From a plasmid: DNA of 64,000 nucleotides. Each line of letters starts with the position of its first letter. The stretch's first letter is position 1. Position numbers: made by a program. The stretch lies in NCBI RefSeq assembly GCF_053078305.1, contig NZ_CP166875.1; one strand, 5' to 3'. This document shows positions 24,001-30,000 of this stretch, one piece after another.

Positions 24001-27000
24001 GTCCGCTTGGAAAACGGAAATTTTCCCACGCTAAGAGAATTGAGTTGAACGAGTGGTTACATCCAAGCCAGCTAACTCACTGAACGTAAAGGCTGTACGA
24101 AATGTTCCGACCGTCCGGATTCCTGACAGTCATTTGGCTAAAAAATAGTCTTAACGTGGTTTATTTTCCGAATTCCAGGCTGACCCCATAAAAGCATCCT
24201 TCAGTTCAGCGTCGATTCTTAAACTCATATTAACCTGTGCCATTCATCACCTCGTCATTACCACGTATATACACAGTATATAATTATTCAGATATCGTCA
24301 CCATGATATGCCGCGCCAGCAACATGGAAGGCGGCACTCCATGCTGTATATGGCAGAGGAGTAAAACCGCCGAATCCCGGCGTAAGCCGGTACAGTCGTC
24401 CGAATGTCAGTAGTTCTACTCCCCCCTGCGAGGCCAGTGCTGACGCGGGACATGGAACGGGTGCTGGAGCGAAGTGGGGAAGCTCCGGTATACTGGCCAA
24501 ACCTACACGCCTCCTTCCGTCTCCGGGAAGATGCTGGCTTCGTACCCTGCGTGCGTCTGATCTGTAGCTGGCCGTGGCACGGCTACGGACAGATTCTGCT
24601 CCGCAACAGTATCGGCGTGCCTGACCTCCTGAAAGTCCCGTAACGCATTTTCTCACCTCCCATGCCCTGACGCTATTGAGCGCGTTACAGAACAATTTAA
24701 GTCATTTAACGAGCCTCCAACGGCTCGATCGAAATAAATCAAATCGTAATCGTCAACGATATATGAGAGGAGACCCCGCTCGCCGCAAATCGATGACCGA
24801 ACGTAGTGAGCGAATCGACGAGGAAGCGGAAGAGAACCTGTACGAAAATGGAGCAATTACGCCCCACCGTCAAGAAATGAGCTGGCTCTCCACGGCGCGC
24901 CATCATAGACAGATGTGGCTCTGCAACTGCGCCATGCGATCGGAGACCGACCAGTAATTATCTTTAATGCCCGGTTCGACACCCGCATTCTGAAACAGAC
25001 TGCTGCCGCACATAGCGATCCGGCTGACTGGCTGGAAGAACTGACAGTATATTGTGCGATGGAACTGGCAGCAGGATATTATGGGGCCACCAACCGCTAT
25101 GGCACGATTTCTCTGGCCTGTGCTGCCAGCAGGCCGGACTGACATGGGAAGGGCTGGCACACTCAGCTGATCGCCGACACACGGATGACGTCAGGGGTGG
25201 TAAACGCTATTACTGCATATCATCAGGAATTGCTGCAGCTTATGTACTGCGATAACCCTGAACTCAACTATGCAAACCTGAAATCCCTGCAAAAACAGCT
25301 GGATGAAATGTATACCTGCATCCGTAATAATCAGATGATGCTCCCAAACTACGGAAAAATGCGCCGGTATGGTGAACCGGTTTCAACAACGTTTGTAGAG
25401 TCGACAATCAACGAAGTGATCGCCAGACGATGACCCAAAAGCAACAGATGCAGTGGGGTAAGGAAGGTACGCATTATTTGTTACAGACCAGAACCGCTGT
25501 CCTGAATAATTAACTGCAGGACAAATTCGCCAGTTGGTACCCGGGTTGCACGATAGACGCTCAGAGTGGAGGAAAGTTATCCGCCATGGCAGCATAACTA
25601 CTTCCCCAGTTTTTTCAGCTCTCCCTTACCAATATCCTACGACGATCACATCGAAAAAAAAACACGGAACAGGCGAACAGAAATATAATTAATTATTTGA
25701 GTTTAAAGGAAAAAAGAGGATACAAGCTTTTTGTTGTATTTTTATTTGTATAAACCGACAAAAAAGAGGCCATACTTCCCGCTTTCTTTGTCTGTTTACA
25801 CGGAACATTTCACCACTGGATACGCTAATAGATCGGATATGAGCACATATTACGCCCGCCTTTCATGCAGAGCATAAAATGAACAAGATTCACGCTAATT
25901 ATTACCTGCAAGATTCTACCGCACGCCAGATAGTTCAACGCACAATGGGGATTATTCCGTACTCGGTAAATGTGATGAACGAGCATGGGATGATCATCGC
26001 TTCCGGGGAAGCCTCACGTTTACATCAACGCCATGAAGGTGCGGTACTCGCATTGACCGAAAACCGGGTCGTCGAAATTGATTCCGCGACCGCCAATAAG
26101 CTTAAAGGCGTTAAGCCCGGAATCAATTTACCGATTAATTTTCGCGACCAGCTGATTGGTGTACTGGGCATTACCGGCGAGCCTGGTGAAGTGAAGGCAT
26201 ATGCACAGTTGGTGAAGATGGCTTCGGAATTAATCATTGAACAAATGGCTCTCCTCGAGCAAAAACAGTGGGATAAGCGTTACCGCGAAGAGCTGATTAA
26301 TCAGCTGATTTTACGCGATCCGCCACCGGACTCACTGAATGCGGTGGTCTCATGGTTGGGAATTAATCTCCAGCTTCCGCGGGTGGTGGTGATTATGGAA
26401 CTGCAACAACCTGATCGCGACGCACTGCATAATCTGATGGAGTATTTTGAATATCGCGCCCGCGACCATTTGGTCACGTTTTCCGACTTTAATGATCTGA
26501 TAATCTTAAAACCTATCTCGCTAAAAAACGGCGTCTGGGATAAATCGTTGGAATTAAGCGATCTGCAGAGACTTAAACATTACGCCCAGTCCTGTGGTTT
26601 TTCCCGACTGATTGTCGGCGGCTATTTCTCTGGAGAAAACGGCCTGCATCGCTCTTTTCAGACCGCGAAATCCACCCAGTCCATGGCGAAAAGACTGAAG
26701 TTGAAGCATCAGTTCATTTTTCATGACGACTATGCGCTGGCATCATTATTAGATGGGCTTTCTGGTACCTGGCAAGCGGAAGAATTATCCAAAATCTGGC
26801 GCAATCTGGTTGCCAAGGACACCAAAGGTATGCTGCAAAAAACGCTGCAGAATTATTTTGATCATAATTGTGATCTTTCGCAAACAGCGACTGGCTTGCA
26901 TATTCATGTCAATACATTACGCTATCGACTGCAGAGAGTGGAAGATATTACAGGAATACAAATCAATAACTTAAAGCAGTTATTCTGGCTGTATATCGGC

Positions 27001-30000
27001 ATGGAGTTACAACGCTGAACTGTATTTCCCTCCAAATTTTTCGCCGTCTGACGTCGTATTTTTAGCCGATACACACAAGTCTAACGCGGCTGCTTTCTCC
27101 ATACTGCCCCCTGTTATTTTCATGGAGAAAGCAGAAGATGGTTTCAATAACAGCAACTGGCGCCATCATCGCACTCGTGGTGGCGATCGTTTTAATTTTA
27201 CGCAAAGTCTCGCCGGCTTACGGCATGATTGTCGGTGCGCTGGTAGGCGGTCTGGTCGGCGGCGCCGATCTGGTGCAAACCGTGACGCTAATGGTCACTG
27301 GCGCGCAAGGCATTACCAATGCCGTGCTGCGCATTCTCGCAGCAGGTGTACTGGCCGGCGTGTTGATAGAATCCGGCGCGGCAAACACCATCGCTGAAAC
27401 TGTGGTGAAAAAAGTGGGGGAAAGCCGGGCGCTTTTAGCCTTAGCTATTGCGACGATGATTCTGACCGCCGTCGGAGTATTTATCGACGTGGCGGTTATC
27501 ACTGTTGCGCCGATTGCCCTGTCTATTGCCCGTCGTGCCGGTTTGTCGAAACTCGCCATTCTGCTGGCGATGATTGGCGGTGGTAAAGCGGGTAATGTTA
27601 TGTCGCCTAACCCCAATGCTATCGCCGTTTCGGACACCTTTCATGTTCCCCTCACCTCCGTGATGATGACCGGGATAATCCCCGGTCTGTTCGGCCTGAT
27701 CGTGGCTTATTTCCTGGCAAAATGTCTCAGCCAGAAAGGCCTGATGGTGATGCCCGACGAAATGATTTCACACGACAACCACGGCAAGCAGCCGGGATTT
27801 CTTGCCGCTATCAGCGCGCCGCTCGTCGCCATTGTGCTGCTGGCGCTACGACCTGTTGCGGGTATCGTCATCGATCCGCTGATTGCCCTGTCCGTCGGTG
27901 GGTTAGCCGGTGCGATCCTTATGGGCAGGTTTAAGCAAAGTAACGCCTTTATGATGTCCGGGCTTACGCGCATGGCGCCGGTAGCCATCATGCTGCTCGG
28001 TACCGGTACGCTCGCCGGGATTATCGCCAACTCGGAACTGAAAGATGTGCTCATTCATGGACTGACCTCTTCCGGTCTGCCTTCTTATCTTCTGGCCCCT
28101 GTTTCCGGCGCGATCATGTCCATGGCAACAGCCTCCACCACGGCGGGAACCGCTGTTGCCGCCGGGGTATTCAGCCAGACGCTGCTGGGGCTTGGCGTAT
28201 CAGCCCTTGCCGGTTCCGCCATGATTCATGCTGGCGCAACCGTACTTGATCACCTGCCTCACGGCAGCTTCTTCCACGCCACGGGCGGCAGTGTCGGCAT
28301 GCTGATCCATGAACGGTTAAAACTGCTGCCTTATGAAACCCTTGTCGGTTTTGTGGTCGCCCTGATTTCCACACTGATGTTTGGCGTCTTCGGACTTGCC
28401 GGGTAAAGACACGATGAAAATAGTCATTGCACCAGATTCATTTAAAGAAAGTTTATCGGCCATGCAGGTGGCCACCGCTATTGAGCAGGGATTTCGTGAA
28501 ATTTATCCCGAGGCCGAGTATGTCAAATTGCCGATGGCTGACGGCGGTGAGGGTACCGTCGAATCAATGGTTGAAGCAACCGAAGGCCATTATCTGTTCC
28601 AGAATGTCACCGGACCGCTGGGGACGCCAGTACAGGCGCGCTGGGGTATGCTGGGAGATGGGAAAACGGCGATCGTTGAAATGGCCTCCGCATCCGGACT
28701 ACATCATGTTCCTCCAGAATGCCGTAACCCTATGCTTACCACCAGTTATGGCACAGGCGAACTGATCCTTGCCGCACTGGACCACGGCGTTGAGCGAATT
28801 ATTCTCGGGATTGGCGGTAGCGCCACCAATGACGGCGGCGCAGGTATGCTACAGGCACTTGGTGTGGCGATGCTTGATACAAACGGGAAATCGCTTCCTT
28901 TCGGCGGCGGCGCGCTAAGCAACCTGGCGCTCATCGATGCCTCAGGCTGCGACGCTCGACTGAAAAACGTTTCTGTCACCGTCGCCTGCGACGTTAACAA
29001 TCCACTCTGTGGCGCAACAGGAGCGTCAGCCATCTTCGGCCCGCAAAAAGGAGCAACACCAGAAATGGTTGCCTCCTTAGAAGCTGCGCTGACCAACTTC
29101 GGTATACGACTTCAGGACGCAACCGGACGAAACGTGATGACGACGCCTGGCGCAGGTGCCGCTGGCGGCATGGGCGCGGCGCTGTTAGGGATTCTGAATG
29201 CGGAGTTAAAGCCGGGAGTGGAGATTGTTATTGACGCGCTGCATCTCGATAGCCTGGTCGCGGATGCCAGCCTGGTAATCACCGGTGAAGGTCGTCTTGA
29301 TAGCCAGAGCATCAGTGGTAAAACACCGATTGGTGTCGCACGCTGCGCTAAGCGGTATCAGAAACCGGTGATCGCACTGGCGGGCGGCTTAACGACCGAC
29401 CACCAGATAGTGCATGAGCACGGGCTGGACGCGGTGTTCTCCGTGCTGACGCAAATCGCCACTCTGCCGGAAGCGCTACAGGATGCGGAATACAACCTCC
29501 GCGTTTCGGCACGCAATATTGCCAGCGTCTGGAAATTATCACAGCAGCAGATGCGCTAATCTTCAGTCAGGCCGGCAAGCAGTAGCTGGCCTGGATATTC
29601 TTTCTCACCAGGCCCATGCTAAAACAGCCTGCTTCAGTCATCCCACGCAAGGCACTAGCATGGCAAAAAAAGAGGGGAGTAGTGGATCCCAAAAGACGGT
29701 TAAGCGGTTAAATTGAATGGTCAATAAGGGGGCTGTTTGGGAAACGAATCTATGGTCACTCCCGTTTTTGCAACACCGATTTTGACGATAAGTGGGCTTG
29801 CTTGAATCTATCCGGCGTCTGAATGGGATTTTATTCCCGCGCCTCGATGAGTTCCGCGCCTGATGAACCTCAAGAAAATATACGGCTTCAATGAGCCTTT
29901 CCGTTTCACAGGTTCCTCAACAGGCCGGTGGGCCGTTCATATCATCAATACCGTGATGCTGATACTCCGTACCCACCGGAACCGCACCTGATGCGGTTCC

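What the first reader, a model, noticed from the sequence alone, without database searches (positions are those of the whole stretch)
25879..29559. Sugar-diacid regulator, GntP permease and glycerate kinase as metabolic cargo
A CdaR-family regulator followed by a GntP-family permease and a glycerate kinase forms a self-contained uptake/phosphorylation module. The 440-bp AT-rich leader upstream of the regulator contains poly-A runs and direct repeats.
Basis: partly seen in the sequence, partly recalled or inferred. Interest (0 to 1): 0.3.

Follow-up and report, generated by a model that had tools for sequence, protein, structure and literature searches.

The report
Plasmid-borne glycerate uptake operon from Citrobacter
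Three intact genes (a sensor-regulator, a membrane importer and glycerate kinase) form an ordinary module for taking up the small organic acid D-glycerate, which an E. coli plasmid acquired from the chromosome of a Citrobacter relative; it is accessory cargo of a kind already described, not a new system.

Summary
Window 25879-29559 has three intact same-strand genes: a CdaR/SdaR-type regulator (379 aa), a divergent GntP-family permease (422 aa) and a class-I glycerate kinase (381 aa).

- **Not an E. coli chromosomal locus.** It occurs in 6 of 5,426 complete E. coli genomes, always on plasmids. The proteins are paralogues of CdaR (38%), GarK (60%) and GlxK (57%).
- **Origin.** Window 25630-~29663 is 95.6% identical in DNA to the Citrobacter sedlakii chromosome, where the triad sits between rep and ppiC. 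The left edge abuts the end of an ISKra4-family IS remnant.
- **Conservation.** The same regulator-permease-kinase order recurs in Salmonella, Budviciaceae, Leminorella and Vibrio. It mirrors the Shewanella SdaR-GrtP-GarK D-glycerate pathway.
- **The "440-bp leader".** The distal 190 bp is IS remnant and only 249 bp is native promoter DNA. That part holds a conserved TTGT-N8-ACAA palindrome, and a second copy lies upstream of the permease gene. These are candidate operators.
- **The 10-bp direct repeat** is not conserved, but it mediated a 136-bp deletion in one sister plasmid.
- **Caveat.** This copy's permease carries P252S at a residue invariant in 117 homologues.

Verdict: ordinary metabolic cargo, a new member of a known kind, of low interest.

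The parts
25239..25628 (+). 3' remnant of an ISKra4-family insertion sequence: end of the transposase pseudogene plus the IS terminus. Its outer end directly abuts the captured DNA.
   Evidence: RefSeq annotates an 'ISKra4 family transposase' pseudogene here in the sister plasmid. About 89-90% DNA identity to ISKra4-family elements over 25240-25628. Homology to a complete copy (L018) stops at about 25625. No second copy of this IS end exists anywhere in the window.
25630..29663 (+). Captured chromosomal segment of about 4.03 kb from a Citrobacter sedlakii-like genome: native promoter region, three genes, terminator and the first 4 codons of ppiC.
   Evidence: blastn gives 95.55% identity over window 25630-29672 to C. 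sedlakii NBRC 105722, L007 5751-9794. L007 is collinear with C. tructae rhlB-gppA-rep-[triad]-ppiC-ilvC-ilvY, and ppiC starts MAKTAAALHILV.
25630..25878 (+). Native leader and promoter region of the regulator gene (36% GC).
   Evidence: Conserved in blocks among C. sedlakii, C. tructae and C. amalonaticus. No sigma-70 consensus promoter was found.
25744..25761 (.). Candidate operator O1 (ATTTGTATAAACCGACAA; a TTGT-N8-ACAA palindrome), about 120-135 bp upstream of the regulator ATG.
   Evidence: A PWM trained only on the regulator-permease intergenic sites scores it 18.1. That is the second best score in the whole 64-kb window, with the next at 12.5. Shuffles reach that score in 0.07% of cases. 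Sites lie at the same distance in C. sedlakii (18.1), Salmonella (17.1) and Leminorella (17.1), with weaker ones in C. tructae (12.8) and Limnobaculum (10.5-10.9).
25662..25807 (+). Pair of exact 10-nt direct repeats ACACGGAACA (25662-25671 and 25798-25807). The repeats bound a deletion-prone interval.
   Evidence: Found. Plasmid pSTEC2018_166-a lacks exactly the 136 bp between the repeats and keeps one repeat copy, which removes O1. In C. sedlakii the second copy reads ACCCGAAACA, so the repeat is not conserved.
25879..27018 (+). CdaR/SdaR-type (PucR-class) transcriptional regulator, 379 aa.
   Evidence: Pfam Diacid_rec + GGDEF_2 + HTH_30. NF008550 CdaR 302 bits, below the 612 cut-off. 38% identical to K-12 CdaR. 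96% identical to the C. sedlakii orthologue. dN/dS 0.13.
27020..27037 (.). Candidate operator O2 (CTGTATTTCCCTCCAAAT), immediately after the regulator stop codon and about 100-118 bp upstream of the permease ATG.
   Evidence: A palindrome TTGTAG-N4-CTACAA sits at the equivalent position in 10 of the 11 aligned orthologous loci, and the Vibrio aquimaris locus has one too (score 15.8). Salmonella did not align and has only a weak TGT-N8-ACA match (PWM 7.2). PWM score here is 19.8.
27099..27105 (+). Conserved CCATACT block, a possible -10 element of the permease-kinase promoter (inferred).
   Evidence: Conserved in 9 of the 12 aligned intergenic regions; the Budvicia and Limnobaculum loci differ. 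There is no consensus -35 and the consensus promoter scan found nothing, consistent with an activator-dependent promoter.
27138..28406 (+). Divergent GntP-family (GrtP-like) permease, 422 aa. This copy carries P252S (C to T at 27891).
   Evidence: Pfam GntP_permease, full length, 94 bits. TIGR00791 77 bits, below the 293 cut-off. 97% identical to C. sedlakii; 73-84% to Enterobacterales, Aeromonas and Vibrio homologues. AF2 model pLDDT 82 with an elevator-type ion-transporter-superfamily fold. Pro252 is invariant in 117 of 117 homologues.
28414..29559 (+). Class-I glycerate kinase, 381 aa, starting 7 nt after the permease stop codon.
   Evidence: Gly_kinase 518 bits and TIGR00045 536 bits. 60% identical to GarK and 57% to GlxK. 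Closest solved structure is 3CWC, Salmonella 'glycerate kinase 2' (E 8e-145). dN/dS 0.10.
29567..29594 (+). Terminator-like hairpin after the kinase gene.
   Evidence: 10-bp stem with 7 GC pairs. Free energy -18.9 kcal/mol, z = -2.9 against shuffles. The U-tail is weak.
29651..29663 (+). Stub of ppiC (ATG plus about 3-4 codons), marking the right end of the captured segment.
   Evidence: Alignment to C. sedlakii ppiC.
29728..29950 (.). Tn3-family terminal inverted repeat fragment (GGGGGCTGTTTGGGAAACGAA) interrupted by an IS4321/IS5075-like fragment of about 210 bp. This is right-flank mobile-element debris and not part of the operon.
   Evidence: 95-97% identical to sequence in more than 5,000 plasmids. 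In L017 the match lies next to an IS4321 transposase gene and a Tn21-type EAL/urf2 gene. Reading the first ~21 nt as a Tn3-family repeat rests on resemblance from memory.

Best explanation
This is a plasmid-borne D-glycerate utilisation operon of the SdaR-GrtP-GarK type.

Proposed mechanism.
1. The CdaR/SdaR-type regulator senses the acid through its N-terminal Diacid_rec domain.
2. It binds TTGT-N8-ACAA palindromes upstream of its own gene (O1) and of the permease gene (O2).
3. It activates the weak, consensus-poor promoter of the permease-kinase operon.
4. The GntP-family, elevator-type permease imports D-glycerate, probably with H+.
5. The class-I kinase phosphorylates it with ATP, most likely to 2-phosphoglycerate, which enters lower glycolysis.

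Origin. The ~4.0-kb unit, with its native promoter region, operators and terminator, was lifted from the rep-ppiC interval of a Citrobacter sedlakii-like chromosome. It now sits next to the terminus of an ISKra4-family IS in a mosaic region of IncF colicin plasmids of E. coli.

Shown here: gene content and integrity, family assignments, plasmid-only distribution in E. coli, the donor lineage and junctions, conservation of the triad and of the palindromes, and purifying selection.

Inferred: D-glycerate as substrate and inducer, the 2-PG product, activation rather than repression, the IS-mediated route of capture, and any benefit to the host.
For: Gene content and paralogy.
- Domains and curated-model scores.
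- 38%, 60% and 57% identity to CdaR, GarK and GlxK.

Conservation of the unit.
- All 12 orthologous loci examined keep the order regulator, ~120 bp gap, permease, ~7-10 bp gap, kinase. They are Citrobacter spp., Salmonella, Budvicia, Limnobaculum, Leminorella and others. Vibrio aquimaris has the same order with a 57-bp permease-kinase gap.
- The unit sits in different chromosomal neighbourhoods: rep-ppiC in Citrobacter, perM-bcp in Salmonella. It therefore behaves as one functional unit.
- No other catabolic enzyme is in the unit, so glycerate is the simplest substrate.

Precedent.
- In Shewanella, sdaR with grtP-garK is the D-glycerate pathway, and a grtP knockout loses growth on D-glycerate (PMC2996990).
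- Fitness data indicate that Shewanella SdaR is an activator (PMC5443562).
- A Yersinia ruckeri homologue 78% identical to this permease carries the SEED role name 'D-glycerate transporter (predicted)'.
- Both E. coli class-I kinases make 2-PG (PMC4378991, title).

Origin and spread.
- 95.55% DNA identity to C. sedlakii.
- IS end abutting at 25628/25630.
- Identical junctions in all 9 PLSDB plasmids.
- Plasmid-only in E. coli.

Operators.

Selection and structure.
- dN/dS 0.10-0.13.
- Exact regulator and kinase proteins are seen on at least 1,000 contigs.
- Permease model has an organic-anion elevator-carrier fold.
Against: - No experiment supports the substrate, the inducer or expression in E. 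coli.
- Orthology of the permease to the experimentally tested Shewanella GrtP (SO1771) could not be tested directly, because its sequence was not retrievable. The 2010 paper stated that GrtP has no orthologues in Enterobacteria. That sits awkwardly with the wide enterobacterial distribution found here.
- This particular copy has P252S at a residue invariant in 117 of 117 homologues, so its transporter may be impaired.
- One sister plasmid has lost 136 bp of the leader, including O1, so selection on regulation may be relaxed.
- E. coli already has two glycerate kinases, so the kinase is redundant.
- Only one IS end flanks the segment and no target duplication was found, so the capture mechanism is unresolved.
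Confidence: 0.75

Rival explanations
1. The module handles a different acid. The permease and regulator could respond to glucarate or galactarate, tartronate, L-glycerate, glycolate, or another C3-C6 hydroxy-acid. The kinase would then only complete a pathway whose earlier steps are supplied by chromosomal gar/gud/glx enzymes.
For: - The regulator has the 'sugar diacid recognition' domain and is a paralogue of CdaR, which controls the galactarate, glucarate and glycerate genes (Monterrubio et al. 2000 as cited in PMC2996990).
- GntP-family members carry varied sugar acids.
- The permease substrate is not established experimentally for any enterobacterial member.
Against: - The triad is conserved as a stand-alone unit in varied chromosomal contexts without dehydratase, aldolase or reductase genes.
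- The tight permease-kinase spacing of 7 nt links the imported compound to the kinase substrate.
- The Shewanella precedent is D-glycerate.
- The O1/O2 motif is absent from the E. coli garP-garD, gudP, cdaR and garK promoter regions.
Confidence: 0.12
2. The cluster is a passenger. It was dragged onto the plasmid with mobile-element traffic and is not expressed, or not useful, in E. coli, and it is beginning to decay.
For: - It lies in a mosaic of IS, transposon and pseudogene debris.
- P252S at an invariant permease residue in this copy.
- A 136-bp leader deletion in pSTEC2018_166-a.
- Truncated members occur in the protein clusters.
- The kinase is redundant with GarK and GlxK.
Against: - All three ORFs are full length in all 9 complete plasmids.
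- The native promoter, operators and terminator are retained.
- The exact proteins are seen on at least 1,000 contigs.
- dN/dS is about 0.1, although most of that divergence probably predates the transfer.
Confidence: 0.1
3. The cluster is a copy of a conserved E. coli chromosomal gar/gud/glx locus.
For: Only superficial support: the same protein families exist on the chromosome.
Against: - No chromosomal match in 5,426 complete genomes, even with sensitive blastn.
- 38-60% protein identity to the chromosomal paralogues.
- All scores fall below the NCBIfam equivalog cut-offs.
- The closest DNA is Citrobacter.
Confidence: 0.01

Closest known systems
Shewanella D-glycerate (Grt) pathway: SdaR (SO1774), GrtP (SO1771), GarK (SO1770) (Rodionov et al. 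2010, PMC2996990)
   Same: - The same three roles: a CdaR/SdaR-type regulator, a GntP-family permease and a class-I glycerate kinase.
- Permease and kinase are co-transcribed, with a predicted regulator site upstream.
- No other catabolic enzymes are present.
- Loss of grtP abolishes growth on D-glycerate.
- SdaR behaves as an activator in fitness data.
   Different: - In Shewanella sdaR is nearby but not directly adjacent (SO1774 versus SO1771 and SO1770). Here the regulator is immediately upstream on the same strand.
- Direct sequence orthology of the permease to SO1771 was not testable here.
- That pathway is chromosomal, whereas this copy is on a conjugative plasmid.
Chromosomal regulator-permease-kinase triad of Citrobacter sedlakii, C. 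tructae and C. amalonaticus (rep-ppiC interval) and of Salmonella enterica (perM-bcp interval)
   Same: - Orthologous genes in the same order and spacing.
- C. sedlakii is 95.6% identical in DNA and 96-97% in protein, including the leader, operators and terminator.
   Different: - Those are native chromosomal loci. This one is excised at 249 bp upstream of the regulator and at codon 4 of ppiC, and joined to IS debris on an IncF plasmid.
- None of these loci has been characterised experimentally, as far as the searchable literature shows.
E. coli CdaR (SdaR) regulon garPLRK / garD / gudPXD, with GarK
   Same: - Regulator of the same family and domain architecture.
- Kinase of the same class (60% identical).
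- Glycerate is the shared intermediate.
   Different: - The regulator is only 38% identical and scores below the CdaR equivalog cut-off.
- The transporter there is MFS (GarP, GudP), not GntP family.
- The dehydratase, aldolase and reductase genes are absent here.
- The O1/O2 motif is not found in the gar or gud promoters.
E. coli GlxK in the allantoin/glyoxylate (all/gcl) cluster
   Same: Class-I glycerate kinase, 57% identical.
   Different: Different operon context (allB-ybbY-glxK), with no dedicated permease or CdaR-type regulator.
Canonical GntP-family gluconate permeases (GntT, GntU, GntP, IdnT, DsdX)
   Same: - Pfam GntP_permease over the full length.
- Ion-transporter superfamily elevator fold.
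   Different: - Very distant: TIGR00791 scores 77 bits against a cut-off of 293, and the equivalog models score 34-59 bits against cut-offs of 524-744.
- Genomic association is with glycerate kinase, not with gluconate kinase.

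Membership tests
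CdaR/SdaR-type (PucR-class) sugar-diacid regulators | N-terminal Diacid_rec sensor domain, central GGDEF-like domain, C-terminal PucR-type HTH | tested here: met
   PF05651 at 10-143 (E 4e-50), PF17853 at 152-267 and PF13556 at 320-376, all above gathering scores.
E. coli CdaR orthologue (NCBIfam NF008550 equivalog) | Score at or above the curated equivalog cut-off (612 bits) | tested here: not met
   302 bits. 38% identity to K-12 CdaR. It is a paralogue, not CdaR itself.
GntP permease family (Pfam PF02447, TC 2.A.8) | Full-length match above Pfam's gathering score, with an ion-transporter superfamily fold | tested here: met
   94 bits against 22.5, covering residues 9-415 on profile positions 6-437 of 440. 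The AF2 model (pLDDT 82, pTM 0.80) matches MleN, TRAP-QM, AbgT and DASS elevator carriers.
Gluconate:H+ symporter subfamily (TIGR00791 and the GntT/GntP/GntU equivalogs) | Score at or above the curated cut-off | tested here: not met
   77 bits against 293. Equivalog models score 34-59 bits against cut-offs of 524-744.
GrtP D-glycerate transporter (Shewanella SO1771 type) | Sequence orthology to SO1771 | not testable with these tools
   The SO1771 sequence could not be retrieved. The evidence is indirect: the SEED role name 'D-glycerate transporter (predicted)' on a homologue 78% identical to this permease, and the same triad in Vibrio, a group in which the paper reports GrtP orthologues.
GrtP D-glycerate transporter (Shewanella SO1771 type) | Operon with a class-I glycerate kinase and linkage to an SdaR-type regulator | tested here: met
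   The kinase starts 7 nt after the permease stop and the regulator is directly upstream. This arrangement is conserved in 12 other loci.
GrtP D-glycerate transporter (Shewanella SO1771 type) | D-glycerate transport activity | not testable with these tools
   This needs uptake or growth assays.
Class-I glycerate kinase (PF02595 / TIGR00045) | Full-length match above the curated cut-off | tested here: met
   PF02595 518 bits over profile positions 1-372 of 372. TIGR00045 536 bits against 168. Matches PDB 3CWC (E 8e-145) and 1TO6.
GarK or GlxK equivalogs (NF007668 / NF007401) | Score at or above the equivalog cut-off | tested here: not met
   524 bits against 686, and 501 bits against 625. 60% and 57% identity. 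It is a third paralogue.
IS-bounded composite transposon | Two copies (or ends) of the same IS flanking the cargo, with target-site duplication | tested here: not met
   Only one ISKra4-family end, on the left. No second end in the window at up to 3 mismatches. The right junction has no similarity to the IS. 'IS-adjacent capture' remains an inference.

The most novel reading that the evidence does not exclude
E. coli has no chromosomal homologue of this permease or regulator. The module could therefore give it a dedicated, inducible D-glycerate uptake route that it otherwise lacks. Its cross-genus capture from Citrobacter, followed by spread on IncF/colicin plasmids, would then reflect selection for a gut nutrient niche rather than hitch-hiking. 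The exact regulator and kinase proteins are on at least 1,000 contigs, including STEC O146. A secondary possibility is that the plasmid regulator cross-talks with the host sugar-acid regulon.
Probability: 0.3. Interest if true: 0.4.

Novelty: new member of a known kind. Interest (0 to 1): 0.22.

Why it matters
It matters modestly.
- It is a clean, datable example of a chromosomal catabolic operon moving intact from Citrobacter onto E. coli conjugative plasmids. The promoter, operators and terminator all came with it.
- It adds a carbon-source trait to plasmids otherwise known for colicins and toxin-antitoxin systems.
- If it is functional, it may contribute to niche partitioning of some STEC and commensal lineages in the gut.
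- It also gives a compact candidate operator motif (TTGT-N8-ACAA) for an uncharacterised enterobacterial SdaR-like regulator.
- It does not reveal a new kind of system.

Tried and rejected
- **Composite transposon.** I looked for a second ISKra4-family end at the right junction and elsewhere in the window. None was found.
- **Cross-regulation with the chromosomal CdaR regulon.** The O1/O2 PWM finds nothing in the garP-garD, gudP, cdaR or garR-garK regions. This is not supported, although CdaR's own site is unknown to me.
- **Riboswitch or sRNA in the leader or intergenic regions.** Rfam at E up to 1 gave only a sub-threshold ryfA fragment outside the operon.
- **Consensus sigma-70 promoters.** None found, against 4.2 expected by chance.
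- **The 10-nt direct repeats as regulatory elements.** Rejected because they are not conserved in Citrobacter. They matter only as a deletion substrate.
- **Direct comparison with Shewanella GrtP or the published SdaR motif.** The sequence is not retrievable and the motif is held only as an image.
- **Solved structure for the permease by sequence.** None found.
- **Literature on this plasmid module.** None found.
- **C. tructae as donor.** Rejected, because its DNA is only ~80% identical despite a 93% identical permease.

Full report
**What is there**

Window 25879-29559 holds three intact ORFs on the + strand.
- The first (25879-27018, 379 aa) has the full architecture of CdaR/SdaR-type regulators: Diacid_rec, GGDEF_2 and HTH_30.
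- The second (27138-28406, 422 aa) is a full-length but weak match to Pfam GntP_permease (94 bits). It falls far below the curated gluconate-permease models.
- The third is a class-I glycerate kinase (Gly_kinase 518 bits, TIGR00045 536 bits). Its real start is the ATG at 28414, 7 nt after the permease stop, because it aligns from residue 1 with GarK and GlxK.
- A stable hairpin follows the kinase stop at 29567-29594 (-18.9 kcal/mol, z -2.9).

**Not an E. coli chromosomal locus**

Megablast of the cluster and sensitive blastn of regulator plus permease each find it in 6 of 5,426 complete E. coli genomes, always on plasmids. PLSDB holds 9 such plasmids. Eight are from human stool or anal-swab isolates, several named STEC, and one is from sheep. 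The one I opened (pFHI_NMBU_11_02) is typed IncFIA/IncFIC and conjugative.

The proteins are 38% identical to K-12 CdaR, 60% to GarK and 57% to GlxK. All are below the NCBIfam equivalog cut-offs.

In draft assemblies the element is less rare. The exact regulator and kinase sequences occur on at least 1,000 contigs, including E. coli O146.

**Where it came from**

- The permease has close chromosomal homologues across Enterobacterales, Aeromonas and Vibrio at 73-93% identity.
- A scan of one genome per species found Citrobacter sedlakii NBRC 105722 with a regulator 96% identical.
- At the DNA level, window 25630-29672 matches C. sedlakii L007 5751-9794 at 95.55%. C. tructae and C. amalonaticus are only ~79-80% identical.
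- In these Citrobacter genomes the triad lies between rep and ppiC, in the core interval rhlB-gppA-rep-[triad]-ppiC-ilvC-ilvY.
- The best Citrobacter protein alleles in the 15-billion-protein collection are still only 97% identical. The donor is therefore C. sedlakii or an unsampled close relative.

**Junctions**

- Left: homology to ISKra4-family insertion sequences covers 25240-25628 and stops at the IS terminus. Citrobacter homology begins at 25630.
- Right: Citrobacter homology ends about four codons into ppiC, at ~29663.
- After ~60 bp of unassigned sequence comes what looks like a Tn3-family inverted-repeat fragment interrupted by a ~210-bp IS4321/IS5075-like fragment (29728-29950).
- No second ISKra4 end exists. 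IS-adjacent capture is plausible but the mechanism is unresolved.
- All nine plasmids share both junctions, which indicates a single capture event.
- The DNA further right (aminotransferase, MFS, Exc2, colicin) derives from small mobilisable Col-type plasmids.

**The unit is conserved**

The order regulator, ~120 bp gap, permease, ~7-10 bp gap, kinase is kept in all 12 enterobacterial loci examined. Vibrio aquimaris keeps the same order, with a 57-bp permease-kinase gap. The chromosomal neighbourhoods differ: rep-ppiC in Citrobacter and perM-bcp in Salmonella.

dN/dS against C. sedlakii is 0.10-0.13 for all three genes.

**Regulatory anatomy**

Only 25630-25878 (36% GC) is native, and it is conserved block by block among three Citrobacter species.
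- Aligning the regulator-permease intergenic regions revealed a palindrome, consensus TTGTAG-N4-CTACAA, directly after the regulator stop in 10 of the 11 aligned loci; Salmonella did not align. In the window this is CTGTATTTCCCTCCAAAT at 27020-27037.
- A PWM built only from these sites finds one other strong match in the entire 64-kb window, at 25744-25761 in the leader. It scores 18.1, with the next best at 12.5, and 0.07% of shuffles reach it.
- Comparable sites lie 136-154 bp upstream of the regulator ATG in C. sedlakii, Salmonella and Leminorella. Weaker ones occur in C. tructae and Limnobaculum.
- I read these as operators O1 (autoregulation) and O2 (permease-kinase promoter).
- No consensus sigma-70 promoter is present (0 found against 4.2 expected), which fits activator dependence.
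- Shewanella SdaR behaves as an activator in fitness data (PMC5443562).
- The motif is absent from the E. coli gar, gud and cdaR promoter regions.

Two exact 10-mers are each present twice, which happens in 1-2% of shuffles. Neither pair is exact in C. sedlakii.

ACACGGAACA (25662 and 25798) does have a consequence. Plasmid pSTEC2018_166-a lacks exactly the 136 bp between the copies, and O1 goes with it.

**Function**

The closest described system is the Shewanella D-glycerate pathway, SdaR with GrtP-GarK. There the GntP-family GrtP was predicted from context, and its knockout abolished growth on D-glycerate (PMC2996990).

- The SEED role name from that work, 'D-glycerate transporter (predicted)', is attached to a Yersinia ruckeri homologue 78% identical to this permease.
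- I could not obtain the SO1771 sequence, so direct orthology is untested. The paper's remark that Enterobacteria lack GrtP orthologues conflicts.
- An AlphaFold model of the permease (pLDDT 82, pTM 0.80) matches elevator-type organic-anion carriers of the ion-transporter superfamily: MleN, TRAP SiaQM, YdaH and VcINDY.
- The product is inferred to be 2-phosphoglycerate, because both E. coli class-I kinases make it (PMC4378991).

**Caveat specific to this window**

Its permease carries P252S (C to T at 27891).
- Pro252 lies in the motif D-P-L-I-A-L-P-x-G-G-L-x-G and is invariant in 117 of 117 homologues.
- C. sedlakii, C. tructae and the sister plasmid checked (pFHI_NMBU_11_02) have Pro.
- This exact allele is on only two contigs.
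- In the model the residue sits inside helix 247-261.
- The transporter of this copy may be impaired or altered.

**Verdict**

This is a plasmid-borne copy of a known type of D-glycerate utilisation triad, captured from a Citrobacter sedlakii-like chromosome. It is a new member of a known kind and of low general interest. The useful by-products are the donor and junction map, a candidate operator motif, a repeat-mediated deletion variant and the P252S allele.

Noticed in passing
window 27891 (permease codon 252): C to T change giving P252S, at a proline invariant in 117 of 117 homologues and present in C. sedlakii, C. tructae and the sister plasmid checked. This exact allele is seen on only 2 contigs. 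It could be a loss or change of function in this copy, or an assembly error.
   Followed up: yes
window 25672-25807; L024 (pSTEC2018_166-a): The sister plasmid has a 136-bp deletion exactly between the two ACACGGAACA repeats. It removes the candidate operator O1 and most of the regulator's promoter region.
   Followed up: yes
window 30244-32582 (- strand): AT-rich pair (33-40% GC) of a class I/II aminotransferase-fold protein (407 aa) and an MFS transporter (372 aa), followed by an Exc2-family lipoprotein gene. The block is shared at 93-97% with small (3.8-6.7 kb) mobilisable plasmids, so a small Col-type plasmid seems to have been incorporated into the IncF plasmid. The function of the pair is unknown.
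   Followed up: partly
window 29728-29950: A GGGGG-initiated Tn3-family-like inverted repeat fragment interrupted by an IS4321/IS5075-like end. It is truncated after ~210 bp. The same fragment is present in more than 5,000 PLSDB plasmids.
   Followed up: partly
window 24876-25238: Fragment of a 3'-5' exonuclease gene, annotated as a pseudogene in sister plasmids, immediately left of the ISKra4 remnant. The sister plasmid opened (pFHI_NMBU_11_02) carries an intact gene annotated as a 3'-5' exonuclease nearby.
   Followed up: no
window 23308-23978: Phd/YefM-type antitoxin plus a PIN-domain (VapC) toxin pair just upstream. The identical-cluster plasmid pFHI_NMBU_11_02 has yacAB here instead, so the backbones differ left of about 24700.
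   Followed up: no
window 30208-30300 (- strand): Sub-threshold Rfam match to ryfA sRNA (20 bits against a gathering score of 80, E 0.055). It is cut off by the end of the searched stretch and overlaps the 3' end of the aminotransferase gene. Probably chance.
   Followed up: no
L023 (CP150497.1, 'plasmid' of Salmonella Infantis): The record carries uraA-hda-arsC-bepA-perM-[triad]-bcp-gcvR-dapA-bamC-purC, which is core chromosomal gene order. It looks like chromosomal DNA labelled as a plasmid in PLSDB.
   Followed up: no
L015 (CACSKA010000009.1, 'Chryseobacterium sp. 18061'): This contig carries an enterobacterial-type triad nearly identical in pattern to 'Citrobacter sp. 18056' (L014) from the same project. 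The taxonomic label is probably wrong, or the assembly is contaminated.
   Followed up: no
L001 20793-22790 (pFHI_NMBU_11_02; roughly window 39700-41700): The sister-plasmid annotation shows a radical SAM protein, a deoxynucleoside kinase and a NudI-like nucleoside triphosphatase in a row. This is an unusual trio for an IncF plasmid and might relate to nucleotide modification or defence.
   Followed up: no
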